Source: Euglena gracilis (Eukaryota). From it: a stretch of 64,000 nt of DNA. Position numbers and translations under genes: made by a program. The first letter of the stretch is position 1. Each line of letters starts with the position of its first letter. The DNA lies in assembly GCA_039621445.1 (NCBI GenBank), contig CP154954.1, forward strand, positions 33,581,455-33,645,454, in the 5' to 3' direction. Shown here in pieces: positions 14,942 through 52,965 of this stretch. The notes below the pieces were generated by a model, which saw nothing but the letters and a program-made list of their open reading frames with translations, was not told the origin of the DNA and did no database searches.

Positions 14942-15280
14942 GTACCTTTGAATTCAGGTGTTGAGTGGGAGAAAGAATGTGGAAATGAATGCCTTGATTT
15001 CCTTGGATAATTGAATTGTCCTTTTTGATCTTTCAATTTTCAATTGACTTTTGTGCTTTTGTGATTCTCAATTCGAATTCTCAAATTCTTGCTGGAATTT
15101 GCTGGTGTTCCAATTCCACTCGCGTGGCGGTTGACTTGCTTTGGATATTCCTACTGGGGTTTTTGGGAATTTTCTGGGAAATTTTTGGCTGCCGACGCCA
15201 GCGGCAGCCGACAACTCTCACCCGCACAGGACTTCGGCCTAACCCAGCACACCAGAGTAATCCAAAAAAAAAAATAAGGC

Positions 15281-16260
15281 GGCAAGGCGCAAGGGCGCAA
15301 ACCAGAAGGGCCCGGCGAGGAGGTCCGAGGGAAACGGAGTATTGCGTCCCTGAGGAGCTCCTTCCACCGCACCTGTTTACCATCCGGGGATGCAACTCCT
15401 GCAGTTTGACCCAGACAGCCGGATCGGAAGAGCGGTGGGTTCCTTCGAACAAGAGAACTTGCAGGGCCTTCGCAGGGGCCCCTTCCCCCACCAACGTGCG
15501 GGCACGGCGGAGAACAGCGGCCGGTATGGCGGCGGGCTCGGTGCGTGCTCTTTTGGCTGCCCGCGTCTCGATGGACGCTGGTGGGAGACGGGTGGCGTTT
15601 CTCAGCTCTGTCATCAGCGTTCCATTGTCCCCTTGCCGGAACAGTTGGACGCGCCGCCTGATCGCGGTGGAGATGTCCTCATCGGCCTCACGCCCCGCAC
15701 TTTGGACTGTCCGAAGCAGTTTGGGGAAGGCGAGGGTGGCGAACAGGCTGTCCATGGTTGGCCTGCTGACGTATTCCTCTATGACATTGGAGAGGGTCTC
15801 GGACACGTCACGTTGGTTGGCCGCAGGCACATGAAGGATCGTGTTTGCGCGGCAGAGGAAGACCTCCTGGAGGTTGGCCGGCTGGGGCGGGATGGTGATT
15901 CCGGGCGGGCCACCGTGACGGAGGTCAGAGTTCTTTCCGCTTTGGTCGACCACCACAGCCGCGGGTGTGTCGTCAGCTGGGTGTGCTAAATCGTTTTGTG
16001 CTGTCACGAGGCGCCTCCGCGGACACGACAACCGACGTGGCTGACCTCTTTCTGCCTCCCGGCGGACCTGGGTTGCTTTCAATGTCCCCGCAGTACAAGA
16101 GGCTCCCTCGGCCCGTCTTGGCGGGCGCTCGGCAATAGGGGAGTTGTCCATTAGGTTGATCATAATGTGGTCCACGGTGCACCGGGGAGTCACGGCAGGT
16201 AAGCGCGATTCCCCTTCGGCGATTGGTTGGGAAAGCCCTCCTACACACCGGCGCCGCCAA
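15281..16260 (-). mobile_element. Inverted 5' part of CRE element B (2A, N-terminal region, up to SSPGPSGLRP)
   Basis: Minus-strand frames give GRGSLLYCGDIESNPGP, LAFPKLLR, RARTLVGEGAPAKALQVL and FPRTSSPGPSGLRP. Confidence 0.85.
16063..16113 (-). other. 2A-like peptide GRGSLLYCGDIESNPG|P
   Basis: 14/17 identical to Thosea asigna T2A GRGSLLTCGDVEENPGP. Confidence 0.9.
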
Positions 16261-16267
16261 GGACTAA

Positions 16268-18190
16268 GTGGGCCGGCTGAGTCCCCTGCAGGTAGGGGTT
16301 GGGGTCCCCAATGCGTCCGAATCCGTCGCCATGGCAACCCAAAGTCTGGTCCGGAAACTGGATCCGCAGGGGAACTGGGCCATTCTTCAGGTGGACCTGA
16401 AGAACGCCTTCAACACACCGGACAGAAATGTCCTTCTACAAGAAGCGCAAACGCGCACTCCAGCGCTTTTCAACTACCTGCGCTTCGCCTACGGCCAGCC
16501 GGCACCGTTGTTCAGCGGAGGACGCGTGCTCCACTCCACGAGAGGCACACACCAGGGTTGCCCCCTGGGACCCCCTGGCTTTGCAGTGGGCCTCCACACC
16601 ATCAGCGAGACCATCAGCCAGCAAGCAGAGTTGCTCTGGTCCTCATGGTACCTGGATGATGGGGTGCTTGTCGGTGAGCCCTGGGCTTTGCAGAAGTGCC
16701 TCGAGTTCCTGCGGACCGAAGGCGCACGCAACGGGGTCCAATTGAACCCGGCGAAATGCGTCGTATGGGGTCCGGCTGCTGGCGCACTCCCTGACCGCGA
16801 GAAGGTTCAAGTTGTACCCTGGGTCGAGGGCTCTGGGATCACTGTCCTGGGCTGCCCCGTCGACTTCCCAACCACGGCAGGGCACACAGTGGCAGCATGG
16901 ACGGAGGCAACAACCAAGCTGGAACAGGCTGCGGACCTAGTCACCTCGGTCACTGACCCCCAGCTGGCGCACCACATCCTGAGGTCTTGACTGGACGGCT
17001 GCAGAGTTAACCACCTCCTGCGCGCCTCTGATCCCTACCAGGCGCAGGGTGAAGTGATTCGGTGCAGTGAGACGATCTTCGGTGCCTTTAAGGACATCAT
17101 CGGCCAAGCCCTCAGCACAGACCACCGCCTGCAGGCCTCGCTACCGCTGTCACAAGGTGGGTGTGGCCTTCGTATTCCCGCCTCCCACCAAGCAGCAGCC
17201 CGTACCGCCGCCCTGTGCCAGTTCTACACACATGGACATAAGCGGGTCGCATGTCCAAGCTACGCGGCCGCCCCGGACGACCGGCTCTGCCAGCAAGCCG
17301 CCAGTGACCTTGGCTCCGTCCTCGGCACCCGTCACCCTGAGAGCAACCGGCTGACAGCATCAGCAGCCTTCGCCTCTGCATCGGCAAATGACACCTCGCA
17401 GAAATGGTGGCAGACCCAACTATCCAAGGCCCATGTGGACGCCCTCATCGCCACGTGGTCTGCAAGGGACCAGACACGTCTTATGGAACAGCTCAACGGT
17501 ATCGGCCACGGCTGGATGGCAGCAGCCCCCAATGAGGCTCTGCACACGGTGATTGAGCCCACCGACTACTGCCTTGGCCTAAAGTGGTGGCTTGGGCTGC
17601 CCCTGGCTGACACGCCAACCACGTGCGCGGGGTGCCATTCTGTGGCAGACATCCACGGGGATCACGACATGTGCTGCATTCGGAACAACTTTGCAAGCCG
17701 ACACAACGCCGTTCAGGAAGCCTTATTCAACCTCCTTTCCGCGAACGGCCAGAGTGTCCAACGCGAGGTGCCAGTACCAAACCAGCCAGACGCCTCCCTG
17801 CGACCAGCGGACCTGTTGCTGGCAACATGGCAAGACGGGAAACCGACCGCGGTAGACATCGCGGTTGCACACGGCTGGCAGTCTGCTGAGAGGACAGCGT
17901 CCAGGGAACGATGGAGAACCTTCCTCAAACGGAAGGAGACCGCAAAGCACGCCAAGTACTACATATTGTGCCGAAACGGGGGCTGGTCCTTTGCCACGCT
18001 GGCATTTGGGACATGGGGAGGCCTGGGCCCGGAGAGCGCCAAGCTGCTGACAAGACTGATCGAACGATCGACCTCCTGGGATCAAGGCGACGTGCGTTTG
18101 ACGCGGCAGGCTGAGAGCTACCAGAGCTTGGCATTGGCCCTGTTCAAGCAGATCACTCAGTTGCTACGACCGAAGCATGTGCTTCGCTGA
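16268..18190 (+). pseudogene. RT plus restriction-like endonuclease of CRE element B; in-frame TGA at 16988
   Basis: QVDLKNAFN, GTHQGCPLGP, WYLDDG, CAGC..HDMCC, RHNAVQ, RPADLL, AVDIAV, KHAKY. ORFs 16268 and 17054 share one frame. Confidence 0.9.
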
Positions 18191-18717
18191 TTCACTGTCT
18201 AACATCTGACAGCGATACCAGCAACACGGACCTCGACCCGGCTGACCCCGGCTGGCCACTACACGTCTCCACCGGCGGCTCATCTACCTCCGACAAAAGA
18301 TCAGGACAAGGCACGACGCAGATGGCCGCCCAAAGGGCGAGGCCATCGGCGCAAACGATACACAAAGGCATTCATCCGCTACCGGCATTCCCGGCACAGA
18401 GGGCGCACCAAGACAGCCTACGAAGCAGCCACTGCTCCCAGAACACGGACAATACGGTTCAACGCTACAGGCACAAGCCTCTACTGCCGCTGCCCGCGGG
18501 CACCTTAACCTCCCTGCCATTCAACCACCTCCTCACCCACTTTCTCCCACGCCCCGCGAACCTCCTCACCCTGTCATCCCCTTGCGCTTTATACTTTATA
18601 ATGAAGATGGGCTTTGCCCGTTTTCCACCCGCTGAGCCCTGCGACAGTCGATACCTCTGCCTATCCATGGGGTTCCCCCTTCTGTCCATAGCCCCTGTCT
18701 CCCCGGAACACTCAAAT

Positions 18718-18761
18718 CCAGTAGGCTGTGCCACTGGTCGGTGGATTCGGTTCGCCCCACC
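18718..18761 (+). other. Conserved 3'-terminal double hairpin (element B)
   Basis: CCAGT-A-GGC-TGT-GCC-ACTGG-TC-GGTGG-ATTC-GG-TTCG-CC-CCACC; recurs at nine places in the window. Confidence 0.8.
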
Positions 18762-21700
18762 ACAGTATTTTTGTCTCATGTGGAAAAAAAACGACGACTT
18801 GCAGCCTTCTTCTCACTGGAGAAGGACACGGTGGTGGGGCGAGCCGAGTCCACCGACTAGTGGCACAGCCTACTGGATTTGAGTGCTCAGGGGGAGGGCT
18901 ATATACAGAAGCGGAAGCAGCAGTCTGTCAGAGGTAGAGGTACAGGAGAAGGCGTGTAAAGCCGAGCGGTCTTGGTAGCAGCGGAGACGGAGGGACGAGG
19001 GGAAACTTGGCGGATGAGGTGCGTTGGGGGTGAGAGGCGGAGGGCGTGGTGGCTGGTGTGTGTGTGTGTGTGTGTGTTTTGTGTGTGCTTGCGGTTTTTT
19101 TTTTGGAGGGATGGGATGTGAGATTGGTAGGTCATCTTTGCTCAATCCATTGCATATGGGCTATGGGTGGTGGGATCCACCTCTCCAGATGGCTCCGCCA
19201 CCGCACCCCATGCCAGCTGGCGGGCCACTTCTCTTGCCAATGTGAGACTCAGGGTTTGCCAGACGGAGGCTTTAGATGAGCGTCGTTGAAAAAACATCTG
19301 TTTGAGCCAATACAGTGCGGAGGCATTTGGTGATGAAGGTTGCAGCCTGCTCCCCCACGCCCCCAAAGCAGTCCAGCACGAATGGGATGAACGAACGAAC
19401 GAACAAATGAATGAATGAACGTCCACCCAAGGCGTTCACAGGTGGCTGCGTATTTGCGGCATTTTTTGGCTTCCTGTAATTCGTGCCACCGTGCTACGGC
19501 TTCTTTTGTGGAGACCGGATTGGCTGGCTGGAGCGGGTGACGCACCGTGACATCCACTGCTGCGGGTCCGTCAGCATCGTCCCTGGTAATGAAGACATCG
19601 CCGAGCCTTGTCTGGTTGTCTGCCACCTCTTCTCTTCGGGCCATGAATCCCGCTTTCCTTGCAAGCTCCACGACAAACGTTTGAAGGGCACCATGTCGCC
19701 GCAAAGTGTTGTTTTTTGGGCAGCAGACAAGGCGATTTCCGCCAAAGTCCATTTGCTGGTGGCAACGAGGGCATTCTGGCAAGGAACCATCTGGCATTGT
19801 CGGGCAAATTGCACACCCTAGAGACCATTGCGTCAGCGCTCTGAATTCGGCTGGTGGAATGAGTGTTTTCAGTGGAGCAGAGGGATTAACCGCAGCCCAG
19901 GCCATGGCGTGTGGCTTCCGCTGGCAGGTAAAACGGACTGCGTCGTTTCCTGCAAAGCTGCCCAAAAGTAGGTCAGCCCGTACTTTTACGACCTCATATG
20001 TCCAAAACTTCTGTCTCGTCATTGTGGGGGACAAGGAGCTCACTTTGCTTGGGTCCGCAAGGATGTCAGTGAGAGGTGCCAACCCTTTGTTGAGACTCGA
20101 AATTAGCAAGCCCGTCTCGCCATGGTCACGTGGAAGCTGAGGGCAGCCTTCCGGTTGGCCCAGAGTGCTGTGGGAGAGGAAACCCAGGATAGCTGCCCAT
20201 CTGGCCGGTGTTCTGGCTGCTTCTGGGTCTCGGATCCCCAGTCCTCCCAAGCGGACAGGAAGTGAGGCCTGTGCCCATTGTTTGTCGTCCATTGGGCGGG
20301 CGGTGATGACCGACATTGTGTCCCGTAGGATGCTGGAGGAGGAATGGCACTGTATTTTAGCACCCGAGAGGCGCGTGGTTCGCAGCAAATCATTCACTTT
20401 GCAGGCATCAAGGCATTGCCTGAGCACAGTGAATTGTAGATGCGGTGACGGCACCAATTGTAACAGGTGGCACGCCTTCTGGACACCGGTGAGGCGCTCC
20501 TCCCAAAGGAGGGAGGCAAATTCAGGCGTTCCACCCGGGTGGCAAACAGGCGCGCCGAGTGCGCGAATGCCGGTGCCGGCTGTGAAAGGCTCGACCGGGA
20601 TGCCCTGAAGGATGCCTTCTCCGTGCTCCACAAAGGCTGGACCACACAGTCTGCATTTCGCCAAGTTGAGACCTACACCAATCCGTGGTCCCTCAGATAC
20701 AATCAACCAAACTGCCCTCTCAAGCTGCTCCGGTGTGCCCATGACGTGGGCATCATCCAGGTACCAGGCTTGCCAGCCCACGATGCCTTGCAGTTTGTCC
20801 AGCAATGGCTGTATCCCGAGGGCAAATGCGGCCGGCCCGCACGGGTCCCCTTGCTGCACACCAGACTTGCTTCGGAGGGATGTCTTTCCCAGATACAACC
20901 GAGAATGGCGTGCGTAGCAGCTCTCCAACCACGGCAGCAGGGAGGGGACATCTATCGGCGACCTCGGCCAGTAAGTTCTCTCTTGATATGCAATTGAATG
21001 CATTTGAGAAATCCAGCTGGAGTAACCCCCAGTCAACCTTCCCGATATGGGACAGGCCGTCAACTATCTGCTGAATGCCCATGCTTATCAATGCGCATGC
21101 GTCCGGTACACCTACCCCCAGCTGTTGTGGCAAGGCGGTAGCCAGGGAGCGGCGGACTTCTGTGTGGCGCATTAGCACTTTTGCCACCAGGCGTCGGAGG
21201 GTTTCCCCGGCAGCAATGGGCCGTGTGCCTTCCTCTTCAGGGGATGTTTTGTTTACGGGGTCGGTGGGTGCGCCGGTCCCTGTTTTTGTTTTGCGGAGTG
21301 GCGTGAGGCGATCCGCACATAGCACTTGCGCTGGTCCATCAGGGATTCCCTTCATTACACAACCGAAGACAAATTCTGTCAACTCGTCCAGGAGGTCTTC
21401 TGCAAAGCTGCCAGCTTCATCACTGAGGAGGGACTTCAGATGTTCAGGACGCAGTCCTGAAGGGCCTGCGGATGATTCAGGGCCGAAGCGCCGTACTGCC
21501 TGTTTCACCATGCGGCGGTCATCTGCCAAGTCCTCGCAGCGAGAGGGTGGTTTTAACCTTGTGGGAGGGCCCCTTCCTGGTTCTTTCTCTGTTGGGTGCA
21601 TTCGGCGTAATCTCTCCCGCACAACGGGATGAGCCGCATCCTGGACTCCTTCGGAGAGAAGTAACTGGCATGCCTTGCCCACGGCTCCTCTCGCCACCGG

Positions 21701-22332
21701 CGTCTCCATCCGACGGATAAACCAATCTGTTAGTTTGCGGAGGATCGGGTGGATACCGAGGAGGCTGGATTTACGGCCGGCTTTTTCGAATTCTGCCAGG
21801 AGACGGCGGCCGGCTGTGTAAGGTAGGCTCGTGCCCTCGTACTGATGGTCCTTCCCAACTGAGCCCAGTGATTCCTGCCAGCGCGTGGCAAGGGTGCCAG
21901 CACTGCCTTGGGCATGCACCAGAGTGCGTGTGAGGACTCCCATGAAGGGTGTCTGTTGTAGTCCTTCAGAAGAGAGGAGTAGAGTTGGGAGACCGCCTGT
22001 ACGGCGCCACGAGGGATGTGTGAGACCGTGCCCCTGAGGTCCTGTGCGATGCCATCCCAGGTTGGTTCGAGCGTCGGACAGCGTTGTGAGAAGGGGGTCC
22101 CAGGCGTTCTGCAGCCCGGCAGAAATGGCTGGGGTGGGCCATCTGTTTCCATGGCTGCCGTCGCTGCTGTAACCTGGACAGTCGTGGGCGCGGCAAGGGC
22201 AGGCAATGGGTCATCCAATTCAATGGCCACCAATAATTCCGGGTCCAGGTTGGTCCCACTTTCAGTCGGCCGTGAAAGAGCAGCATCCTGCCTTCGTGTT
22301 TGGCGGCCTCTCTCCGTTGGCTACCCTGTGCG

Positions 22333-22386: not shown

Positions 22387-22429
22387 TAGGTGGAAACCCC
22401 ACGCTATTACGGCTGGAATTGTGCTGAGC

Positions 22430-23293: not shown

Positions 23294-23318
23294 CTTTCTG
23301 ACTGTCTATGTTTTTTCG
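23294..23318 (+). other. Euglenid spliced-leader-like exon relic CTTTCTGACTGTCTATGTTTTTTCG
   Basis: 23/25 match to the Euglena-type SL CTTTCTGAGTGTCTATTTTTTTTCG as recalled from memory. Confidence 0.65.
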
Positions 23319-24429
23319 TTCGCATATCATGTCGGACAACTGAAAGCCGGACCATCAGGATGCCCAAGGTGCCACAATCCCCTGGATCTCGTCCGTTGTC
23401 ACCGACACAATATTGTTCGGCGACACGGGGCGGTACAATCCTACCTCTTGGGGCTTGCTCAAAAGGCTGTGTTCTTAGCGAGACGAGAGGGAGCTGCCCC
23501 TGATGGTTCACGGCCCGGGGATGTCTTTGTCATGAGGTACGATGCCAATGGTCTAGCCGCAATCGACATGACGGTACGCCACCACTTAGCACCCTCCCGA
23601 ACACGACCTGGGACAGAGGACCTTGGCAGATGGCACGAATCAAAAGAGGAGGACAAAGTCAAGAAGTATGGTGCTGGCTGCCAACGAAGGGGTGGACGTT
23701 CATTCCCTTTGTCTTGGATTGCTATGAGGGCATGGGTGATGCGGCCCTTGCCTTCGTTGGCCAATGCGTACGTCTACTCATGGGGCAGCACGAATCGTGG
23801 GAGAGACGAGCAACGGAGGCCAACTGTTGGCAGGGCCTGAGCATGGCCCTGGCCAGGGAGCTGGCGAAGCAGCTTGCTTGGGGACAGTGCCCCGAGGAGC
23901 TGGCTGACGGTGGTGAAACAAGCCTTCATCAACCTTACTCTGTCCAGTAACGGGGAGGTGCAAGCATGCCGCCTACGTCAGCCCCTTAAGCCATGCGAAC
24001 CTTATGGCCAAAGCACCACGAACAAAGGCCCGTCGTGGCCACCTTCAATTACCCGCATTTTTCTACGCAGCTCTTCGGTGAGAGACTGCCCGATGACCGC
24101 CAAAGGCTTGGGAAAAGTTCCGCTCGGTACCTCCATCTCCGCCGCGTTGTAAACAAGGCGCGAGCTCCGTAGTGACGCATGATGACCCACGTGGCAGAGG
24201 ATTTTCAACCACAACCTGAGGACCTTGTGCCCGGCAGCTACTCCGGCTGTTGATCAATGGCTGCCCCACCTCGCACCCTTCTCTAAGCTCACATCTCTTC
24301 CCCTTTTCCCTCCCCTCCCATCTCCCGTCCCCAGCACAGACTGTCGCTTCTGTACATAGCCTTACCCCCTGAACACAAATCAAATCCAGTAGGCTGTGCC
24401 AGTGGTCTGTGGACTCAGTCCGCCCCACC
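23319..24429 (+). mobile_element. 5'-truncated CRE element D (RLE domain plus 3'UTR)
   Basis: CPRCH..RRHGAVQ, RPGDVFV, AIDMTV, KVKKYG, WTFIPFVLDC. Ends in the hairpin motif at 24386-24429. Confidence 0.88.
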
Positions 24430-24463
24430 ACCGCTTTGGCCAAAAATAGGCGGTTCCGAGTGT

Positions 24464-41400: not shown

Positions 41401-42000
41401 TGCTACGACCGAAGTATGTGCTTCGCTGATTCACTATCTAACATCTGACAGCGATACCAGCAACACGGACCTCGACCCGGCTGACCCCGGCTGGCCACTA
41501 CACGTCTTCACCGGCGGCTCATCTACCTCCGACAAAAGATCAGGACAAGGCACGACGCAGATGGCCGCCCAAAGGGCGAGGCCATCGGCGCAAACGATAC
41601 ACAAAGGCATTCATCCGCTACCGGCATTCCCGGCACAGAGGGCGCACCAAGACAGCCTACGAAGCAGCCACTGCTCCCAGAACACGGAAAATACGGTTCA
41701 ACGCTACAGGCACAAGCCTCTACTGCCGCTGCCCGCGGGCACCTTAACCTCCCTGCCATTCAACCGCCTCCTCACCCACTTTCTCCCACGCACCGCGAAC
41801 CTCCTCACCCTGTCATCCCCCTGCGCTTTATACTTTATAATGAAGATGGGCCTTGCCCGTTTTCCACCCGCTGAGCCCTGCGACAGTCGATACCTCTGCC
41901 TATCCATGGGGTTCCCCCATCTGTCCATAGCCCCTGTCTCCTCGGAACACTCAAATCCAGTAGGCTGTGCCACTGGTCGGTGGATTCGGTTCGCCCCACC
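38465..42000 (+). mobile_element. Duplicate of CRE element B (inverted 5' part 38465-39499; RT-RLE 39507-41429)
   Basis: Near-identical translations; 3' motif at 41957-42000. Confidence 0.9.
39302..39352 (-). other. 2A-like peptide GRWSLLSCGDIESNPG|P
   Basis: Duplicate of 16063-16113 with two substitutions outside the core motif. Confidence 0.88.
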
Positions 42001-42111
42001 ACAGTACTTTTGTCTCATGTGGAAAAAAAAAGACGACTTGCAGCCTTCTTCTCACTGGAGAAGGACACGGTGGTGGGGCGAGCCGAGTCCACCGACTAGT
42101 GGCACAGCCTA

Positions 42112-42340
42112 AACCCCCCCCCAAATAACACCCCCCCCCCCCAAATAACACCCCCCCCCAAATAACACACCCCCCCCTCGGGGGCCGATTTCGAGCGCCC
42201 AAATAACACCCCCCCCCCTGTTTTCCTTTGGTTTTCCATGTAAAAATAACACCCCCCCAAATAACACCCCCCCCCCCTGGGGCCTCAGTTCGGGTGCCCA
42301 AATAACAAACCGGGGGGGTGTGTTATTTGGGGGGGGGGTT
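42112..42340. mobile_element. 229-bp MITE with TA target duplication (Tc1/mariner-type)
   Basis: TIRs AAC(n)AAATAACAC / GTGTTATTTG(n)TT with TA on both sides. Empty site cagccTActgg at 18866-18876. Confidence 0.9.
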
Positions 42341-45212
42341 TACTGGATTTGAGTGCTCAGGGGGAGGGCTATATACAGAAGCGGAAGCAGCAGTCTGTCA
42401 GAGGTAGAGGTACAGGAGAAGGCGTGTAAAGCCGAGCGGTCTTGGTAGCAGCGAAGACGGAGGGACGAGGGGAAACTTGGCGGATGAGGTGCGTTGGGGG
42501 TGAGAGGCGGAGGGCGTGGTGGCTGGTGTGTGTGTGTGTGTGTGTTTTGTGTGTGCTTGCGGTTTTTTTTTGGAGGGATGGGATGTGAGATTGGTATCTC
42601 ATCTTTGCTCAATCCATTGCATATGGGCTATGGGTGGTGGGATCCACCTCTCCAGATGGCTCCGCCACCGCACCGCATGCCAGCTGGCGGGCCACTTCTC
42701 TTGCCAATGTGAGACTCAGGGTTTGCCAGACGGAGGCTTTAGATGAGCGTCGTTGAAAAAACACCTGTTTGAGCCAATACAGTGCGGAGGCATTTGGTGA
42801 TGAAGGTTGCAGCCTGCTCCCCCACGCCCCCAAAGCAGTCCAGCACGAATGGGATGAACGAACGAACGAACAAATGAATGAATGAACGTCCACCCAAGGC
42901 GTTCACAGGTGGCTGCGTATTTGCGGCATTTTTCGGCTTCCTGTAATTCGTGCCACCGTGCTACGGCTTCTTTTGTGGAGACCGGAGTGGCTGGCTGGAG
43001 CGGGTGACGCACCGTGACATCCACTGCTGCGGGTCCGTCAGCATCGTCCCTGGTAATGAAGACATCGCCGAGCCTTGTCTGGTTGTCTGCCACCTCTTCT
43101 CTTCGGGCCATGAATCCCGCCTTCCTTGCAAGCTCCACGACAAACGTTTGAAGGGCACCATGTCGCCGCAAAGTGTTGTTTTTTGGGCAGCAGACAAGGC
43201 GATTTCCGCCAAAGTCCATTTGCTGGTGGCAACGAGGGCATTCTGGCAAGGAACCATCTGGCATTGTCGGGCAAATTGCACACCCTAGAGACCATTGCGT
43301 CAGCGCTCTAAATTCGGCTGGTGGAATGAGTGTTTTCAGTGGAGCAGAGGGATTAACCGCAGCCCAGGCCATGGCGTGTGGCTTCCGCTGGCAGGAAAAA
43401 CGGACTGCGTCGTTTCCTGCAAAGCTGCCCAAAAGTAGGTCAGCCCGTACTTTTACGACCTCATATGTCCAAAACTTCTGTCTCGTCATTGTGGGGGACA
43501 GGGAGCTCACTTTGCTTGGGTCCGCAAGGATGTCAGTGAGAGGTGCCAACCCTTTGGTGAGACTCGAAATTAGCAAGCCCGTCTCGCCATGGTCGCGTGG
43601 AAGCTGAGGGCAGCCTTCCGGTTGGCCCAGAGTGCTGTCCACTCGGGAGAGGAAACCCAGGATAGCTGCCCATCTGGCCGGTGTTCTGGCTGCTTCTGGG
43701 TCTCGGATCCCCAGTCCTCCCAAGCGGACAGGAAGTGAGGCCTGTGCCCATTGTTTGTCGTCCATTGGGCGGGCGGTGATGACCGACATTGTGTCCCGTA
43801 GGATGCTGGAGGAGGAATGGCATTTTATTTTAGCTCCCGAGAGGCGCGTGGTTCGCAGCAAATCATTCACTTTGCAGGCATCAAGGCATTGCCTGAGCAC
43901 AGTGAATTGTAGATGCGGTGACGGCACCAATTGTAACAGGTGGCACGCCTTCTGGACACCGGTGAGGCGCTCCTCCCAAAGGAGGGAGGCAAATTCAGGC
44001 GTTCCACCCGGGTGGCAAACAGGCGCGCCGAGTGCGCGAATGCCGGTGCCGGCTGTGAAAGGCTCGACCGGGACGCCCTGAAAGATGCCTTCTCCGTGCT
44101 CCACAAAGGCTGGACCACACAGTCTGCATTTCGCCAAGTTGAGACCTACACCAATCCGTGGTCCCTCAGATACAATCAACCAAACTGCCCTCTCAAGCTG
44201 CTCCGGTGTGCCCATGACGTGGGCATCATCCAGGTACCAGGCTTGCCAGCCCACGATGCCTTGCAGTTTGTCCAGCAATGGCTGTATCCCGAGGGCAAAT
44301 GCGGCCGGCCCGCACGGGTCCCCTTGCTGCACACCAGACTTGCTTCGGAGGGATGTCTTTCCCAGATACAACCGAGAATGGCGTGCGTAGCAGCTCTCCA
44401 ACCACGGCAGCAGGGAGGGGAAATCTATCGGCGACCTCGGCCAGTAAGTTCTCTCTTGATATGCAATTGAATGCATTTGAGAAATCCAGCTGGAGTAACC
44501 CCCAGTCAACCTTCCCGATATGGGACAGGCCGTCAACTATCTGCTGAATGCCCATGCTTATCAATGCGCATGCGTCCGGTACACCTACCCCCAGCTGTTG
44601 TGGCAAGGCGGTAGCCAGGGAGCGGCGGACTTCTGTGTGGCGCATTAGCACTTTTGCCACCAGGCGTCGGAGGGTTTCCCCGGCAGCAATGGGCCGTGTG
44701 CCATCCCCTGAAGAGTACTGTACTGATGGTCCTTCCCAACTGAGCCCAGTGATTCCTGCCAGCGCGTGGCAAGGGTGCCAGCACTGCCTTGGGCATGCAC
44801 CAGAGTGCGTGTGAGGACTCCCATGAAGGGTGTCTGTTGTAGTCCTTCAGAAGAGAGGTGTAGAGTTGGGAGACCGCCTGTACGGCGCCACGAGGGATGT
44901 GTGAGACCGTGCCCCTGAGGTCCTGTGCGATGCCATCCAGGTTGGTTCGAGCGTCGGACAGCGTTGTGAGAAGGGGGTCCCAGGCGTTCTGCAGCCCGGC
45001 AGAAATGGCTGGGGTGGGCCATCTGTTTCCATGGCTGCCGTCGCTGCTGTAACCGGGACAGTCGTGGGCGCGGCAAGGGCAGGCAATGGGTCATCCAATT
45101 CAATGGCCACCGATAATTCCGGGTCCAGGTTGGTCCCACTTTCAGTCGGTCGTGAAAGAGCAGCATCCTGCCTTCGTGTTTGGCGGCCTCTCTCCGTTGG
45201 CTACCCTGTGCG

Positions 45213-46171: not shown

Positions 46172-47306
46172 CTTTCTGACTGTCTATGTTTTTTGTTCGC
46201 ATATCATGTCGGACAACTGAAAGCCGGACCATCAGGATGCCCAAGGTGCCACAATCCCCTGGATCTCGTCCGTTGTCACCGACACAATATTGTTCGGCGA
46301 CACGGGGCGGTACAATCCTACCTCTTGGGGCTTGCTCAAAAGGCTGTGTTCTTAGCGAGACGAGAGGGAGCTGCCCCTGATGGTTCACGGCCCGGGATGT
46401 CTTTGTCATGAGGTACGATGCCAATGGTCTAGCCGCAATCGACATGACGGTACGCCACCACTTAGCACCCTCCCGAACACGACCTGGGACAGAGGACCTT
46501 GGCAGATGGCACGAATCAAAAGAGGAGGACAAAGTCAAGAAGTATGGTGCTGGCTGCCAACGAAGGGGTGGACGTTCATTCCCTTTGTCTTGGATTGCTA
46601 TGAGGGCATGGGTGATGCGGCCCTTGCCTTCGTTGGCCAATGCGTACGTCTACTCATGGGGCAGCACGAATCGTGGGAGAGACGAGCAACGGAGGCCAAC
46701 TGTTGGCAGGGCCTGAGCATGGCCCTGGCCAGGGAGCTGGCGAAGCAGCTTGCTTGGGGACAGTGCCCCGAGGAGCTGGCTGACGGTGGTGAAACAAGCC
46801 TTCATCAACCTTACTCTGTCCAGTAACGGGGAGGTGCAAGCATGCCGCCTACGTCAGCCCCTTAAGCCATGCGAACCTTATGGCCAAAGCACCACGAACA
46901 AAGGCCCGTCGTGGCCACCTTCAATTACCCGCATTTTTCTACGCATCTCTTCGGTGAGAGAGACTGCCCGATGACCGCCAAAGGCTTGGGAAAGTTCCGC
47001 TCGGTACCTCCATCTCCGCCGCGTTGTAAACAAGGCGCGAGCTCCGTAGTGACGCATGATGACCCACGTGGCAGAGGATTTTCAACCACAACCTGAGGAC
47101 CTTGTGCCCGGCAGCTACTCCGGCTGTTGATCAATGGCTGCCCCACCTCGCACCCTTCTCTAAGCTCACATCTCTTCCCCTTTTCCCTCCCCTCCCATCT
47201 CCCGTCCCCAGCACAGACTGTCGCTTCTGTACATAGCCTTACCCCCTGAACACAAATCAAATCCAGTAGGCTGTGCCAGTGGTCGGTGGACTCAGTCCGC
47301 CCCACC
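46172..47306 (+). mobile_element. Duplicate of SL-headed CRE fragment D
   Basis: SL-like sequence 46172-46195, RLE motifs, hairpin motif 47263-47306. Confidence 0.85.
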
Positions 47307-47340
47307 ACCGCTTTGGCCAAAAATAGGCGGTTCCGAGTGT

Positions 47341-50300
47341 CTTTCTGACTGTCTATTCTTTCGTGGCGCACAACTACCATGTCTTGAAAGCCCCTGGTGG
47401 GGTCCAAGCTCATTGAACATCTTCCCCATCCTGCAGATAACGTCGCCTGAAGCACAAGTATCAAGGAAAGGAAAGAAGTTCAAGTCGTCAACCAGAACAT
47501 GAACACAGAGGAGGAGTCAATTGGTTGCCTGCGGAACAAGAGGCATCGCAGCGACAGTTCGGGTGTAAGCCACGACCCCGGTGTAGCACTTTTGGAGTTC
47601 GTAAGGGGCCAGGACGTGGTGAACCTCCGCACCTCAGCGAGCAGCAGCACAGCCACCACCACCCCCAAGCCAAAGGCGCCACCAAGAAGAACACCCCCAA
47701 GGGGAGGGAAGGGGGCAGAAAGCAGGGAAACGCCACGGGTTCCCGTGGCACTCGGCCGCCACGTCGAAGGAAAGCAAGGGGATGATGCGGCGGCTAAGGA
47801 CGATGAGGAAGAAGCAGAAGCAGAGGGACCACGAACCCTCATGTGTCCCTTTTCATCGTGCCCAGAAGCCCTCACCACCAAGTCCCGCAAAGCATTGGTG
47901 TCGCACCTGGCCGCGCACCATGTGTCGCACGGCCAAGTGTTGCCGTCGGCAGTCCTCCAAATGCTGAGGGTACGGGTCTGCGCAGGCCCCTTCCGCTCAC
48001 TCGTGCCCCAAAGCGAGAGATGCAGGAACTGCAAGGTGGCACCGCAAAGCCTCGACACCGCGGAGGCAACACGGGGCCCCGTGCCTCTCATCCCCCCGAG
48101 GGATGCAGCCGCGCCACAAACGGGAACACCAACCACAAGCCGATGCCCACAAATGACGCCCACGTTTGATGAGGTGCTCGTCGTGCATGTGCCCACAGTG
48201 AGACACATCCCAGCAATGTGTCGCACCGCCATCACCCAGGAGCTGGCACATCTAGTGAGGGATGTGGCAGTCCCAGTGCCAACATGGGAGGCGCTCCACC
48301 GTCTCATATGTTTCCCAAAGCTGGTCTTGCGTTAATCAGGCCGGGGTGGATGCAAGCACCAGCGGCACGCAGCACATGACATGGACGGACGGCTGCGTCT
48401 CTTTCAGCAAGGCCAGTTGGGAACCTTGTGGGCCGAGGCGGAAAAAAAAACGCCCAAGCACGGCAGACCCCATTGGACCAACCGGCGCGCACAAGGGCAC
48501 AGGCCAAGCGGGAGGAGGAAGAGGAAATGTCACCATCACAGGTGGGGAAAATCAGGGCTTTGGTGGAGGAAGGCGCACTGCCCAAGGCCGCTAAGCTGTT
48601 GGTGTCAGATGCGCTGTTCAACTTGCAGGAACCGGGTATGGAAGCCGTACTGAGGGACCTCCATCCCCCAGCACAGCCGCACTTGGTCCCGTCAGGGGAT
48701 TTGCCCACCTCGATTGCCTGCCGCCTGGGGACGAGGGCATGCACGACGAGGAGAGCGACGAGCAGTGGTCCAAGCGGGCCTGGGCAGCCGTGGTCTCCTT
48801 CCCCCCGGGGTCTAAGTCCAATCCACCTCAGTGAGTGTTGCCGAAAGCTGGGGCCCGGGGGTGGCCTGGTCCAAGCCCTCGGCAAGCTTGCTGCGACGGC
48901 CCTGACCACATCCCGGAGAGCGTGCGAGAAGTACCATGCGCCTCCACGCTCATCCTGCTCCGCAAGAAGGATGGGGGGGTGCGGCCGATTGCCGTCGGTG
49001 ACACCCTCCGGCGAGTGGTGGGCAAGTGCCTTCTCCATTCTGAAGCGGTGAGGATGTTGATGGCAGCCCTACAACCGCGGCAGTGCGGGGTGGGAGTGTG
49101 AAACGCCGCCGAGATGGTGGGCATGGGCCTGCAACGCTCGTCCAGTCAAGCCACCTCCAAGGGGATAACGACCACGTGGTGTTGCAGGTGGATATGTGCA
49201 ATGCCTTCAACTTCATCAGCAGGGATGCAATGCTCCGGGGATGCTTGGCCAAGGTACACACGGCGTACAACTGGCTGCGCTTTTGTACAGTGGACCAAGT
49301 CCGTTGTTCTGCCAAGGGCGCTTCCTGTGTACAAGCCAGATCGGAGTGCATCAAGGCGACGCATGCGGGCCCTTGGGATTTGCACTGGACTTGGACTACG
49401 CCCTTGACCAGTGCTTTGCCCGGGACTTGGCGCTTTGGCGACGGCCACATCGTGGGGAAACCAGCAGTGGTGTTGGCCCGCCTCCATGACATCAGCACGG
49501 TCCTAGGCCTAAGGCCTAGCCCTAGGCCTCCACCTCAATTTGGCCAAGTGCAATTTTTGGGGACCTGGGATGCAGAACAGTCTATCAAGCCGGGCCACAT
49601 TACCCAGACGGTTTGGCAGAAGACCACTTGGAAAGACAAGTGCCCGTGATTCCTTTTGGAGGACAGAGGGGCATCACGACCCTGGGCGTCCAGATTGATG
49701 CCCCGCGGGAGCATCACACAGCACAAGAGGACACGCCAAGAGCATCACAATGCCAAGCCGTATGGGAAGAGACCGTGGACAGGGCGACCTTGCTCCTGTA
49801 ACGGCTCAGGGGCCACCCAGAGGGGCAAGTGCAGCACGCACTCTTGCGGTACTGCCTTGACGGATGTCGGGTGGTCCACCTCCTCCGATCAACGGAGAGA
49901 GAAAACGCACGGGACTGCCCGCTCATTCTCAGGGCATGGCTGGAGGAAGCCGTACAAGATCTCCTCGGACTGGGAATCACCGAGAGTTCACGGGATCAAG
50001 TCTCCCTGCCCATCCGCCAAGGGGGACTCGGAATCTCGGACCCCGACGTGTTGCAACCCGCGGCACGGATGGCGGCCTTGTTGAACCTGGGCAAGCAGTG
50101 GGGGTGCCAGCCTCGGTGTTGGCAACCCCATCCCCGGAAATGCAAGACAGGCTACAACGGTTGCATCAACAGCTTGGCCCTAACGTGGATCCCGTGGCCA
50201 GCTGGCCCGCAGGCACCACCCCACTCTCTCCGCAGCACCAGAACACGCCTCCCAACGGTGGTGGACGGAGAAAGTGGCGGAAATGCAGAGCCAGTGAGTC

Positions 50301-51491
50301 GACGCGGTCGGCTTTGCCAGGGACCGGGTGAGAAGGGCTTGCCAAAGGGACCGGTGGAAACGGGATGGATACGGACTTTGCCCAGAAAGGCACAGCACAC
50401 AGCTTTCTCGGACATCCAATACTGGCTGCTACTGCAGCGGTGGCTTGGCCTGTCCATCCTCCCTTCAGGGGTCACGCTGCAGGGGTGCCCACTGTGTCGA
50501 GGATCCATTGACCCCTTCGGGGATCATTCGTCTGCTGCGAGCAGAATGGAAACACCGAACGGCACAATGCATTCCGAGATGCTTTTGCAGCGATGTGTGC
50601 CCTGTACAACATTGCGGTGGAGAAGGAGGCAGAGTGTTTGGCGAACAACAGACCGGCCGATGTTCTCCTCATCAACTGGTCACAGGGGCAACGAGGCCTT
50701 CGGACCTCTGCCAGGCGGTGCTGTTTGAGGTCACCAAAAGGGCCACCGCAGACATGCGGGGATGGCCAAAGACAAGGGCCATGCAAGAAAAGCAGGAAGC
50801 ACTACCGGTGACACTCATGCGCCACGTTGCGCGGCAGGTATCCGCCAGGGACCGCGTGGAGCAGGCCCTCCACCCATGGTAAGTCCCCAACCCCCACCGC
50901 AGACAGCACCAAAAGCGCGCAAGACCAAGACCAAGACAGCCACAACCCGCAAATCGCGGAGGTTCACCACGGAACCACCCCCCCAAAAGGCGCCCCCCCC
51001 CACAAAAAAAAACGAAGCCGCCAAAAAAAACAGAGCCCACACGCCAGGCGAAAGGTATCCGCCCAACGAGGCAACAAATGGGAGTGGAGCCGGCAAAAGC
51101 AACGCACACGCAAAGGGTAGCCCGCCCGCCCCGGACTCCACAAGGTGAGAAGAAAGTGCGCGCGCGACCCAGCAAGCCGGCTATAGCCCCTAAAAAAAAC
51201 GACGAAAACCAAGCAAGACACACACAGACAACCACCAACCGCCGCCCCCCACCTCGGCACGCTCCCACCTCTCCTCACCACACCGCCGACCAAACCGCAT
51301 GGGCCACCAGCCGGTGACCCTAGATCCGCCCTGCTTCTTACCCCTCCCACACACACGCTATATTGAACATGGGTCTTGCCCATTTCCCTCCCGCCTTGCC
51401 CTGTGTCAGCTGTGAAATACCATAACCTTCCGCGGACCCTCAAATCCAGTAGGCTGCGCAACTGGTGGGTGGTTCCGTTCGCCCCTCCACC
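47341..51491 (+). mobile_element. Duplicate of CRE element E, complete from SL-like head to 3' hairpin
   Basis: SL-like sequence 47341-47363; variant hairpin motif 51446-51491. Confidence 0.87.
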
Positions 51492-51499
51492 GTTTCCCT

Positions 51500-52026
51500 T
51501 CTGGGGACACAAACAAAACCAAACAAGAAATGCCGCAACAAGTGATATTCAAAACTATCGTTCAACAATTGTTACACAAAGAAAGGCGAGGACAAGGTAC
51601 AAGGACTGCCCGACCACCGGTACTCAACCCGTGGACCCTAAGATGTCCAAAAGTCCAAAATTCGAGGACATGGGACAAGGACTCTTTCTCACCCTCGCAC
51701 CACGCATGTACTTCACTGTAAAATATCTCACCCCTTTGGCAACGCGTTTTTCTTTCTGAGCAAAAACAACCAATGCTTTTTAACCAATTTTCCCACGCTC
51801 CAATGGTCAAAACCAAGCCCGAAGTCATAGAAAAGCCATAGAAAAGTTTATGGGCCTCTCGCCCATAAACAGCCTTCCCTGGAGCACCCATAACCTCCCA
51901 CGGGACCTTGGAGGAATTAACGGCATCCGGTACATGGCCACACCCCCGAACTCCGAGCTCTCCGAGTCCGAGCTCTGCTCAAACCAGTAGGCTGTGCCAC
52001 TGGTCGGTGGACTCGGTTCGCCCACC
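51500..52026 (+). mobile_element. Short non-coding retroposed fragment ending in the CRE 3' hairpin (5' boundary uncertain)
   Basis: Motif at 51984-52026; no recognisable coding sequence upstream. Confidence 0.45.
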
Positions 52027-52086
52027 AACGCAAATTTGTCAATTGTCGAAGTCTTTTAGTCACAACGAATGATTGTGCAGAACGGT

Positions 52087-52965
52087 GGTGGGGCGAACCA
52101 AATCCACCAACTAGTGGCACAGCCTACTGAATTTGAAGTGTACGGGGGGAAGGCTGTGCACAGATGGGGCGACCCCAAACATAAGGCATTGAGTATCATC
52201 CGGTTCCCAGGAAACCCAGAAGGGCGAAGAGTGGGTAGCATTGAGTGTCGTCGTGAGGCTGATGTAGGCTGAGAGGGCTGAAACAGGGCAGGAACGTGCA
52301 GTGATACAGGAAGAAGGACGGAGGCGGATGATGTGGAGAAGGAAGGGCAGGGGAATGGTGGGGGGTACTGGGGGACAGGCTATGAGACCAGGGAGATAGG
52401 AAGGCATTTAGCGTGTAAAGGGGCCTGGGGACAGCCCGTGTAGCCTGTTCAGAAGGCAGCGATGGAGCTCCTTTGTGATGAGAAGGGCACCGAGTTGTGA
52501 GGTGACTCCGGAGAGCAGTGCCAAAGAGTGGCCTTGTTGTAGTTCATCCAGGAACACGCTCCGCGCCCCACCTAAGGCCGTGGCCCCAAGGCGACGCTGG
52601 AGCTCATCCCACACGGTATGACTGTCTCCAACGAAGGACCCCAGACGCACAAGGTCAATGGGGAGAAGGATGCCCCCCGTGACTGGCAGCGGGCCCCATA
52701 CTTGGCCGTCTTCTTCTTAGCTATGCCGCGGAGGAGCTCCCATGAGGCGGGCAAGCTCCAAGCAGCACTGGGCGGTGAAGGGTGGTTTAGCCCACAAGTC
52801 AGCCCCCGACCAGTGTGGCAGGAAGATATCCGCGTCACCCTTCTGACCTGCAGCCACAGAAATCTCGAGGGCATAGGGATCCCCCGAGCCTGCACAGGGC
52901 ACCCAGAAAGTGCTGAACCCGGTGGTGGCGCTTCCACAACTTGTTCTTGTGGCAGCACAGAGCTT
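52087..52965 (-). mobile_element. 5'-truncated CRE element G (RLE remnant plus 3'UTR)
   Basis: ADIFLPHW, KKKTAKYGARCQSRGASFSPLTLCVWG; hairpin motif at 52087-52130. Confidence 0.8.

What the first reader, a model, noticed from the sequence alone, without database searches (positions are those of the whole stretch)
18718..18761. Conserved 44-nt double hairpin terminates every CRE family in the window
Seen: CCAGT-A-GGC(TGT)GCC-ACTGG plus GGTGG-ATTC-GG(TTCG)CC-CCACC at 18718(+), 18833(-), 24386(+), 51446(+), 51984(+) and 52087(-), with duplicates at 41957, 42072 and 47263. Where an RLE ORF lies upstream it is ~300-600 nt away in sense orientation, and the rest of the 3'UTRs is largely unrelated. 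Bulged A and UUCG-type loop. Inference: an RNA element for RT recognition or 3'-end formation shared across divergent families, or a captured small RNA or target sequence.
Basis: partly seen in the sequence, partly recalled or inferred. Interest (0 to 1): 0.7.

Follow-up and report, generated by a model that had tools for sequence, protein, structure and literature searches.

The report
Shared tail of Euglena R2-like retrotransposons
A roughly 50-base sequence really does end every jumping gene of the R2-like kind whose tail is present in this Euglena-type DNA, even when their proteins are only about 28% alike. It is most likely the tag their copying enzymes use to start copying, a known kind of signal seen here in an unusually shared form.

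Summary
The motif sits at all nine stated places. Six are independent and three lie in a ~23-kb duplication, one of them split by a 229-bp MITE.

The conserved unit is longer than 44 nt. It has a 51-53-nt core (18713-18765) and a looser ~35-nt block upstream of it. It ends abruptly at CCACCACCG, with no A-tail and unrelated flanks.

It closes the 3' UTRs of at least four protein-divergent lineages of RT plus restriction-like-endonuclease elements (24-49% aa identity). Their closest solved relatives are R2 proteins. Outside the last 44-100 nt, the UTRs are unrelated.

In two public runs of the same organism, summed contig depth over the core is several hundred to about a thousand times that of the neighbouring family-specific UTR. 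More than 100 contigs per run diverge exactly at the 3' edge.

RNA reads contain the core but run on into other flanks, so it is not a discrete small RNA. No Rfam family or tRNA matches.

The two hairpins are plausible but unproven. There are 0 compensatory changes in 15 pairs, and folding energies are no better than shuffles.

Best reading (0.6): a shared 3'-terminal tag for starting target-primed reverse transcription, comparable to the terminal 67-nt element of avian R2. This is a new variant of a known kind and of moderate interest. The scan had not noted this tail on other DNA.

The parts
18713..18765 (+). Core tail of element B. It matches the run-wide majority letter at every core position except 18764. 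Contains hairpin 1 (18718-18737), a 2-nt linker, hairpin 2 (18740-18761) and the 3' end at CCACCAC(A/C)G.
18679..18712 (+). Looser upstream block of the shared tail of B (pairwise identity between copies 33-83%). The joint between it and the core varies in length among copies.
   Evidence: loose ends at 18712/18713
16214..18190 (+). Element B: the C-terminal part of the RT plus the RLE. The ORF at 16991-18190 is intact (399 aa) and carries a Cys/His motif and a PD..D..K-type nuclease motif. Its 3' UTR runs from 18191 to 18765.
18829..18881 (-). Core tail of element C, lying tail-to-tail with B across a 63-nt spacer (18766-18828).
19249..22210 (-). Element C: RT plus RLE in two overlapping ORFs (19249-21063 and 20753-22210). 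Its 3' UTR runs from 19248 to 18829.
24381..24433 (+). Core tail of element E.
23294..24380 (+). Element E: a spliced-leader-like start (23294-23318), an RLE C-terminal fragment (about 23361-23705, 49% identical to C) and a 3' UTR.
51441..51494 (+). Core tail of element F', the most diverged copy.
47341..51440 (+). Element F': a spliced-leader-like start at 47341, decayed RT and RLE frames reaching 50728, and a 3' UTR. Its twin F (24464-28314) is cut off by the N gap.
51980..52030 (+). Core tail of G, a short piece with no ORF (at most 51493-52030). An extra repetitive insert of about 24 nt sits between the upstream block and the core.
52083..52135 (-). Core tail of element H, lying tail-to-tail with G across a ~52-nt spacer (52031-52082).
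52136..52760 (-). 3' UTR of H and weak RLE remnants.
   Evidence: E 0.002-0.012 against B and C
41952..42004 (+). Duplicate of the B core, inside the 23-kb duplication.
42068..42351 (-). Duplicate of the C core, split by a 229-bp MITE (42112-42340) after the fifth base of hairpin 1.
47258..47310 (+). Duplicate of the E core.

Best explanation
The block is the common 3'-terminal module of a group of R2-like non-LTR retrotransposons (RT followed by a restriction-like endonuclease). According to earlier notes the genome is Euglena gracilis.

Shown:
- The module is the last 51-53 nt of the element, with a looser ~35 nt before it.
- Nothing follows it: no A-tail and no microsatellite.
- Short copies keep it.
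- Lineages whose proteins are only 24-49% identical and whose UTRs are otherwise unalignable carry it at 72-93% identity.

Inferred, by analogy with R2 and with 'stringent' LINEs:
- The element's RT-RLE protein binds this terminal RNA, which would form two short helices, a 2-nt linker and a single-stranded 3' end (CCACCACCG).
- The protein places that 3' end in the RT active site.
- It starts target-primed reverse transcription exactly at the last bases, on a nick made in T-rich DNA that is often spliced-leader-like.
- 5' truncation, and RT jumps from the leader-capped 5' end of one template to the tail of another, then produce the head-to-tail and nested arrangements seen here.

Also inferred: the near-identity across lineages is kept by strong selection on copying competence, probably helped by exchange of tails between co-expressed RNAs (template switching) and by cross-mobilisation.
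For: 1. Terminal position and sharp end.
- Six of six independent copies lose similarity right after CCACCACCG.
- The 60-nt downstream flanks are unrelated in 15 of 15 pairs (p 0.098-0.89).
- In the runs, 141 contigs (X6) and 119 contigs (X2) diverge behind 18763, with consensus agreement of only 0.37.

2. It belongs to the elements.
- RLE coding sequence lies 373-718 nt upstream in sense for B, C, E and F', and weakly for H.
- Conservation rises towards the tip: the UTR body is unalignable, the upstream block is 33-83% identical and the core 72-93%.

3. It is shared across divergent lineages.
- B against C: 28% identity over 347 aa.
- B against F: 24-29%.
- C against F: 27%.
- C against E: 49% (all).
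- In 15 of 15 UTR pairs the terminal 44-100 nt is the only strong match.

4. Abundance.
- Summed contig depth in 18718-18754 is 3.46 million (X6) and 1.42 million (X2).
- The B-specific UTR bins (18200-18643) reach only 323-27,241 (X6) and 251-5,079 (X2).
- The end of the C ORF reaches about 0.3 million (X6).

5. Sequence constancy. Within 18713-18763 only one position passes the 8% variant threshold in the runs. It is 18727 T>A, which sits in the loop of hairpin 1.

6. The proteins are R2-like. A profile of C, B and their relatives hits the R2 proteins 9nl3, 9dou and 9nl2 at E 8.5e-23 to 7e-20 and R2Bm 8gh6 at 4e-8, ahead of L1 ORF2p at about 1e-7.

7. Precedent.
- R2Tg needs only the final 65-67 nt of its 3' UTR. 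That element has two helices, a linker and a single-stranded tract leading into the RT site, and is highly conserved among avian R2 (PMC12222951, passages read).
- An extension of the R2Bm RT domain binds the element's RNA and guides its 3' end into the active site (PMC10499050, abstract).
- Stringent LINEs need their 3' stem-loop (PMC4176376, abstract; PMC1636434, abstract start in the listing).

8. The size-fractionated RNA run shows 16.1 against 1.95 mean depth for first mate on - against + over the core. If the library is of the usual stranded type, that fits sense-strand RNA.
Against: - No covariation. There are 0 of 15 pairs with compensatory changes. Paired cells are 87.8% against 88.1% in shuffles. 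Every stem change in the six copies breaks a pair.
- Folding energy is not better than shuffles: z -1.13 for B, with a range of -0.12 to -2.13.
- RNA reads run through the block into other sequence, and no pile of RNA ends is seen at its edge. This rests on only 27 and 29 reads, from 5-6% of two runs.
- In the best-studied stringent LINEs each protein recognises only its own tail (PMC4176376, abstract). One near-identical tail for proteins 28% alike is therefore not the expected pattern and needs an extra assumption, either tail exchange or a common reader.
- No binding or TPRT assay exists.
- The 85% likeness threshold, and the presence of two tail copies in the laid stretch, hide part of the real variation.
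Confidence: 0.6

Rival explanations
1. The block acts as DNA. It would be the recognition or homing site, or the remnant of a target, for the elements' endonuclease. New copies would then land next to old tails, and the block would be conserved because it is a target rather than an RNA signal.
For: - Hairpin 1 is also a DNA palindrome made only of Watson-Crick pairs.
- Tails cluster. There are two independent tail-to-tail pairs with 63- and ~52-nt spacers. One tail is followed after 30 nt by the leader-like start of the next element.
- Contigs in the runs show further tail-to-tail joints and tail-tail tandems ('goes back 50' and 'goes back 108').
Against: - Similarity extends upstream into the element in a graded way. 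It does not stop at one fixed insertion point.
- Downstream flanks are unrelated.
- Every copy in the window has element UTR upstream, and none stands alone.
- The two spacers are not alike (p 0.49 and 0.61).
- If old tails were the target, most tails should be followed by another element. That holds for only one, possibly two, of six here.
Confidence: 0.12
2. The core is a separate RNA: a small 'adapter' template or a SINE-like hitch-hiker. Under this reading the RT starts on that RNA and then jumps to whatever element RNA is at hand. The tail is therefore re-acquired at each insertion and stays the same in all lineages.
For: - The core is near-identical across lineages that are 28% alike in protein.
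- The joint just before the core varies in length: 0-3 extra bases in most copies and ~24 in G. Many contigs break there, 74+50 in X6 and 75 in X2.
- R2-type RTs are known to jump between templates. The R2Tg paper mentions template jumping after TPRT (PMC12222951).
Against: - The block just upstream of the joint is also shared by B, C, E and H (57-83%). The joint therefore lies inside an inherited module.
- RNA reads give no discrete small RNA. 27 of 27 and 28 of 29 reads continue into other sequence on one or both sides, at low depth, even in the size-fractionated run.
- There is no Rfam or tRNA match and no Pol III-type head.
Confidence: 0.1
3. The block mainly serves the RNA itself. It would act as a stable 3' cap-like structure that protects a non-adenylated transcript, or as a processing signal that defines its 3' end, without being the RT's recognition site.
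For: - The elements have no A-tail.
- Two GC-rich helices sit at the very end.
Against: - RNA reads cross the 3' edge and no ends pile up there.
- No ribozyme or processing-signal family matches, even at E up to 10.
- This role would not by itself explain why DNA copies end exactly at the block.
Confidence: 0.1
4. The inverted pairs are the ends of a MITE or foldback transposon, or a hairpin RNA gene, and have nothing to do with the retrotransposons.
For: - The pair at 18700-18894 scores as a long hairpin against miRNA-precursor models (80.9 bits, far below the gathering score of 245).
Against: - Two of the six copies (E, F') are solo.
- The arms continue into the UTRs of two different RT-RLE elements.
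- The spacers are unrelated.
- The miRNA hits are generic matches to a hairpin shape.
Confidence: 0.03

Closest known systems
Terminal 3' UTR element of R2 retrotransposons (R2Tg, final 67 nt; R2Bm, 40-nt core)
   Same: - The element type is the same: a single protein with RT followed by a restriction-like endonuclease. R2 proteins are the best solved-structure hits.
- It is a compact element at the extreme 3' end, with two helices, a short linker and a single-stranded 3' tract.
- It is kept nearly unchanged among related elements; the R2Tg paper reports this for avian R2 (PMC12222951, passages read).
- Neither has an A-tail.
   Different: - There is no detectable sequence likeness to R2.
- A pseudoknot is not shown here. 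One candidate 5-bp pairing has a single compensatory change, which is no better than shuffles (219 of 500).
- These elements are not rDNA-specific; their flanks are heterogeneous.
- The sharing spans lineages only 24-29% identical in protein.
- No biochemistry has been done.
3' tails of 'stringent' LINEs and their partner SINEs (UnaL2/UnaSINE1, ZfL2-1/ZfL2-2)
   Same: - A conserved terminal stem-loop is needed for copying.
- It is kept by truncated and non-coding partners (PMC1636434, abstract start in the listing; PMC4176376, abstract). Element G here has no ORF but carries the tail.
   Different: - Those are APE-type L2-clade LINEs.
- Each of their proteins reads only its own tail (PMC4176376, abstract). 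Here one tail serves several lineages.
- As I recall, and not checked here, those tails end in short tandem repeats. This one does not.
CRE clade of trypanosomatids (SLACS, CZAR, CRE1, CRE2)
   Same: - The host group is Euglenozoa.
- The architecture is RT plus C-terminal RLE.
- There is a link to the spliced leader: E and F start with a leader-like 16-mer. Earlier notes e1-7359901 and e1-7361294 report the same.
   Different: - Insertion at one fixed position of the leader RNA gene is not seen; flanks are heterogeneous.
- There is no A-tail here.
- Clade membership was not tested by a tree.
- The nearest named protein hit is from Diplonema papillatum at 30% identity.

Membership tests
3'-terminal reverse-transcription start element of R2-like (RLE) LINEs | Lies at the extreme 3' end of the element, with a sharp boundary to the flank | tested here: met
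   6 of 6 copies end at CCACCACCG. Flanks are unrelated in 15 of 15 pairs. 141 and 119 contigs diverge behind 18763.
3'-terminal reverse-transcription start element of R2-like (RLE) LINEs | The element encodes an R2-like RT followed by a restriction-like endonuclease | tested here: met
   RVT_1 hits. Cys/His plus nuclease motifs are present in the B and C ORFs. The profile hits R2 proteins at E 8.5e-23.
3'-terminal reverse-transcription start element of R2-like (RLE) LINEs | Retained in 5'-truncated and non-coding copies | tested here: met
   E (1.1 kb), G (0.54 kb or less, no ORF) and H (decayed) all keep it. A 108-nt tandem unit is seen in a contig.
3'-terminal reverse-transcription start element of R2-like (RLE) LINEs | Conserved RNA secondary structure supported by covariation | tested here: inconclusive
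   0 of 15 pairs are compensatory, and 87.8% paired cells compares with 88.1% in shuffles. There are only six sequences and 7 of 15 pairs never vary. Energies have z -0.1 to -2.1.
3'-terminal reverse-transcription start element of R2-like (RLE) LINEs | Bound by the element's protein, and necessary and sufficient for TPRT | not testable with these tools
   Needs recombinant protein and RNA assays.
Stringent LINE/SINE shared 3' tail (L2 clade type) | Tail shared between an autonomous LINE and a multi-copy non-coding partner (SINE) | tested here: inconclusive
   G carries the tail without an ORF, but there is one copy only. No tRNA, 5S or 7SL head was found.
Stringent LINE/SINE shared 3' tail (L2 clade type) | APE-type endonuclease LINE | tested here: not met
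   The endonuclease is C-terminal and restriction-like.
Known RNA family (tRNA, snRNA, leader RNA, ribozyme and so on in Rfam 15) | Match to a covariance model | tested here: not met
   0 hits at gathering score in the whole window. At E up to 10 there were only generic hairpin hits caused by the inverted pair and one E 4.6 lncRNA hit. ARAGORN found 0.
CRE clade (SLACS/CZAR/CRE1/CRE2) | Insertion at a fixed site within spliced-leader RNA genes | tested here: not met
   No intact leader gene flanks any copy. The 3' flanks are heterogeneous, with only short leader-like words.
CRE clade (SLACS/CZAR/CRE1/CRE2) | Phylogenetic placement of the RT within the clade | not tested
   No tree was built. 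The best named hit is a Diplonema hypothetical protein.
MITE / foldback element (for the inverted pairs) | Terminal inverted repeats bounded by target-site duplications and moving as one unit | tested here: not met
   The arms continue outward into two different LINE UTRs. Solo copies exist. The spacers are unrelated.

The most novel reading that the evidence does not exclude
The tail may be a lineage-independent 'universal tag'. Under this reading it is not inherited with each element. Either it is re-acquired at each insertion because the RT starts on a dedicated tail-bearing RNA and then jumps to the element RNA, or it is held constant because a single shared reader (a host factor or one master RT) copies all lineages. 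That would make a whole superfamily of R2-like elements in a 2.4-Gb protist genome depend on one 51-nt RNA handle.
Probability: 0.12. Interest if true: 0.75.

Novelty: new variant of a known kind. Interest (0 to 1): 0.45.

Why it matters
- Repeat annotation. In the published E. gracilis assembly, 32.7% of the genome is unclassified repeat and only 1.5% is called LINE (PMC11252322, passages read). A short, nearly invariant tail gives a simple handle to find, orient and delimit this large group of R2-like elements.
- Biology. One tail serving lineages with 24-29% protein identity contrasts with the strict self-recognition shown for stringent LINEs. It raises testable questions about cross-mobilisation and tail exchange.
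- Practical use. Compact 3' elements of R2 are what current RNA-templated insertion tools rely on. A 51-nt element from a distant R2-like group would be a useful comparison if it proves sufficient for priming.

Tried and rejected
- Whole genome: none is held for this window, so no genome-wide census or R-scape-type test was possible.
- More copies from public collections: the degenerate core pattern found 0 matches in metagenome contigs and 0 in viral contigs.
- Protein-guided fetch: this returned 21 metagenome loci with distant relatives. None carries the block; the best nhmmer hit is E 0.079, off-target. Cross-species covariation could therefore not be tested.
- Closer relatives: proteins P0001-P0006 (38-46% identical to C) could not be followed to DNA.
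- Rfam: nothing real. ARAGORN: nothing.
- Single-sequence PDB searches with the C and A ORFs: 0 hits. Only the profile search worked.
- Candidate pseudoknot between GAAC in the upstream block and GUUC in the hairpin-2 loop: one compensatory change (in copy C), not above shuffles (219 of 500). I keep it as a lead only.
- Homology between the two tail-to-tail spacers, or among any of the 3' flanks: none.
- tRNA-like or CCA-end reading of hairpin 2 plus ACC: rejected, because the next base is G and ARAGORN and Rfam find nothing.
- Copy number from depth: not derivable. The runs marked 'DNA?' are small relative to a 2.4-Gb genome, and summed contig depth is not a copy number, so I use only ratios.
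- Run index: no RNA holder listed.
- Literature: no paper in the library contains the core 15-mer in either strand or as RNA. None of the 15 listed papers, out of 43 holding at least two of the terms, combines Euglena with non-LTR or RLE terms.

Full report
WHAT IS THERE

The 44-nt string of the finding is at 18718-18761(+). It occurs again exactly at 41957(+), and with 3 mismatches at 18833(-); none is expected by chance. A pattern built from the invariant columns (20 fixed bases) hits 8 places in the window against 0 in 100 shuffles. BLAST and an nhmmer profile add the ninth copy, at 42072(-).

A self-comparison shows that 7152-28314 is repeated at 30369-51185 at 96-99% identity, with an N gap at 28315-28327. 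The copies at 41957, 42072 and 47263 are therefore duplicates of 18718, 18833 and 24386, and six copies are independent.

The duplicate at 42072 is split by a 229-bp insertion (42112-42340). That insertion has C/G-rich inverted ends and a TA duplication. The duplication is therefore real DNA that has since diverged.

EXTENT

Aligning the six copies with their flanks shows a core of 51-53 nt (18713-18765 in copy B), which is 72-93% identical between copies. A looser block of about 35 nt precedes it (18679-18712; 33-83% identical). The joint between the two varies in length; G has about 24 extra repetitive bases there.

Similarity stops in all six copies right after CCACCACCG. No A-run or microsatellite follows. 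The 60-nt downstream flanks are unrelated in 15 of 15 pairs (p 0.098-0.89), and so are the two spacers of the tail-to-tail pairs (p 0.49 and 0.61).

WHAT IT BELONGS TO

Six-frame searches place RT and restriction-like-endonuclease (RLE) coding sequence upstream of the block, in sense, for these elements:
- B: ORF 16991-18190, intact for 399 aa, with Cys/His and nuclease motifs.
- C: 19249-22210(-).
- E: RLE fragment to about 23705.
- F': frames to 50728.
- H: only weakly (E 0.002-0.012).
G has no coding trace.

The distance from the ORF end to the motif is 373-718 nt.

The lineages are far apart in protein:
- B against C: 28% over 347 aa.
- B against F: 24-29%.
- C against F: 27%.
- C against E: 49%.

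In 15 of 15 pairwise comparisons of the 3' UTRs, the only strong match is the terminal 44-100 nt.

Element A (672-3455) has lost its 3' part, so nothing can be said about its tail.

A profile of these proteins and their database relatives hits solved R2 proteins best (E 8.5e-23 to 7e-20; R2Bm 4e-8), ahead of L1 ORF2p. Single sequences hit nothing. The nearest database proteins are unnamed environmental sequences (38-46% identity) and a Diplonema papillatum hypothetical protein.

Earlier notes of this scan call the genome Euglena gracilis. I did not verify the species. However, E and F begin with a 16-mer followed by a degenerate form of the conserved leader end TATTTTTTTTCG given in PMC4778363 (passages read).

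EVIDENCE FROM PUBLIC RUNS (runs chosen)

I laid 18200-19300 against two contig sets marked 'DNA?' (X6, X2) and two raw RNA runs (X21, X24) of the same organism label, at 85% likeness.

Depth. Summed contig depth is 3.46 million (X6) and 1.42 million (X2) in 18718-18754. It is 0.55 and 0.16 million in the bin before, 0.29 and 0.12 million in the bin after, and only 323-27,241 and 251-5,079 across B's own UTR. These sums are not copy numbers, so I use only the ratios, which are several hundred to about a thousand.

Boundaries. Contigs diverge in bulk behind 18763 (141 in X6, 119 in X2). The run-on begins CGTT and is then heterogeneous (agreement 0.37). Contigs also break before 18712/18713 (74+50 in X6, 75 in X2). 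There the run-off still resembles the upstream block, so that break reflects small indels at the joint.

Variation. Within the core, only 18727 T>A passes the 8% threshold (18% in X6, 11% in X2). It lies in the loop of hairpin 1. B's A at 18764 is private; about 99% of the depth has C. Part of the variation is hidden, because variant tails map to the second, inverted copy in the laid stretch and because of the likeness threshold.

Other arrangements. A few contigs show further tail-to-tail joints with other spacers, and tail-tail tandems ('goes back 50' and 'goes back 108').

RNA. 27 reads (X21) and 29 reads (X24) were laid, from 5-6% of each run. 27 of 27 and 28 of 29 lie only partly on the stretch, and a share of 1 (X21) and 0.93 (X24) run on for 20 or more letters unlike it. 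No place collects read starts or ends. The block is therefore present in RNAs from many copies, but it is not a discrete small RNA, and no cleavage at its edge is visible at this depth. In X24 the first mate lies on the - strand at 16.1 against 1.95 over the core. For the usual stranded library that means sense-strand RNA.

IS IT A KNOWN RNA?

No.
- Rfam at gathering scores finds nothing in the window.
- At E up to 10, the paired locus gives only generic miRNA-precursor hits caused by the ~190-nt inverted arrangement (best 80.9 bits against a cut-off of 245).
- A solo copy gives one E 4.6 lncRNA hit.
- ARAGORN finds no tRNA.

IS THE DOUBLE HAIRPIN REAL?

Hairpin 1 (8 bp with a bulged A) is predicted in four of the six single-sequence folds (B, F', G and H) and in the consensus fold.

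Hairpin 2 is ambiguous. RNAalifold prefers a 7-bp stem with G-U pairs, which leaves CCACCACCG single-stranded.

Energies are not better than dinucleotide shuffles: z is -1.13 for B and ranges from -0.12 to -2.13.

On the six copies, 0 of 15 pairs show a compensatory change. 87.8% of cells pair, against 88.1% in shuffles, and every change in a stem breaks a pair.

A candidate 5-bp pairing between the upstream block and the hairpin-2 loop has one compensatory change (in copy C), which is not above shuffles (219 of 500).

With six mostly dead copies and 7 of 15 pairs invariant, this test has almost no power. The structure is plausible but not shown.

HOW IT MOST LIKELY WORKS

Shown: the block is the 3' terminus of R2-like elements. 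It is kept by short copies, shared across lineages, and far more abundant than any lineage-specific part.

Inferred:
- It is the cis-acting tag that the RT-RLE protein binds in order to place the RNA 3' end in the active site and start target-primed reverse transcription at the last bases.
- The closest precedent is R2. R2Tg needs only the final 65-67 nt of its UTR. That element comprises two helices, a linker and a single-stranded tract into the RT site, and is highly conserved among avian R2 (PMC12222951, passages read).

What is unusual is that lineages 24-29% identical in protein share one tail. In the stringent LINEs ZfL2-1 and ZfL2-2, each protein reads only its own tail (PMC4176376, abstract). 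I therefore add, as inference, tail exchange by template switching and/or cross-mobilisation.

The flanks just after the tail are T-rich and often contain short leader-like words (for example TTCTG after H and TTTC after F'). One tail (E) is followed after 30 nt by the leader-like start of F. This agrees with earlier notes that these elements start with the leader and land at leader-like sites (e1-7359901, e1-7361294). In my six flanks it is suggestive only.

RIVALS

- A DNA-level homing site or target remnant is disfavoured. Conservation upstream is graded, flanks are unrelated, and no stand-alone core exists in the window.
- A separate adapter RNA or SINE is disfavoured. The shared block lies upstream of the variable joint, and no discrete RNA is seen.
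- A role in RNA stability or processing is possible in addition, but no RNA ends are seen at the block.
- A MITE or foldback reading of the inverted pairs fails. The arms continue into two different elements, and solo copies exist.

COMPARISON AND NOVELTY

This works like the terminal 3' element of R2 and like the tails of stringent LINEs. Membership in 'R2 3' element' cannot be claimed beyond position and context, because the structure and the protein binding are untested. Membership of the CRE clade was not tested by a tree, and two of its hallmarks are absent: a fixed site in leader genes, and (as I recall it) an A-tail.

I found no paper containing the core sequence. None of the 15 papers listed, out of 43 holding at least two of the terms, combines Euglena with non-LTR or RLE terms. 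The E. gracilis assembly paper leaves 32.7% of the genome as unclassified repeats.

VERDICT

The finding is real and is a new variant of a known kind. Interest is moderate, 0.45.

Noticed in passing
42112-42340: A 229-bp MITE-like insertion with C/G-rich inverted ends, internal repeats of a short CCCC..AAATAACAC unit and a TA duplication. It is present in only one of the two copies of the 23-kb duplication, where it splits the C' tail. It therefore inserted after the duplication.
   Followed up: partly
7152-28314 and 30369-51185; N gap at 28315-28327: A ~23-kb segmental duplication at 96-99% identity. Within it lie further ~5-kb tandem units (for example 7152-10068 matches 12273-15213). An assembly gap cuts element F just before its expected tail.
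   Followed up: partly
23294-23318 and 24464-24487 (duplicates at 46172 and 47341): Elements E and F start with the same leader-like 16-mer, followed by a degenerate T-run ending in CG. E joins it directly to the last part of the RLE ORF, as if the leader had been spliced onto an internal site of the element RNA before copying.
   Followed up: partly
24434-24463: Between the tail of E and the leader-like start of F lie 30 nt that contain two partial leader-like pieces, a 'stutter' of the kind that repeated insertion or template jumps would leave.
   Followed up: no
23250-23293(+/-) and 18784-18800: A short ACGACGAC(G) motif sits directly before leader-like starts: on the minus strand before the 5' end of C, and in the B-C spacer. 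It may be part of the preferred target or of the 5' junction.
   Followed up: no
22321-23241(-), repeats at 22411-22966: The ORF upstream of C's RT contains about 100-nt tandem coding repeats and ends in a 2A-type motif (..DVEENPGP). The 2A motif was already noted by others (e1-7361182).
   Followed up: no
51957-51980: Copy G has an extra ~24 nt of CCGAG/CTCT-type repeats exactly at the joint between the upstream block and the core. This is the same joint at which many contigs in the runs break.
   Followed up: partly
56894-63998(+): A different retroelement. It has a long ORF with a zinc knuckle, then an ORF with a weak Dam-like methyltransferase hit (E 7e-5, below the cut-off), then a strong RVT_1 hit (E 4.6e-28). 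This layout recalls DIRS-type elements. It does not carry the tail.
   Followed up: no
3220-3553 and 3910-4243: A 334-bp stretch at the broken 3' end of element A is repeated at 100% identity 690 bp further on.
   Followed up: no
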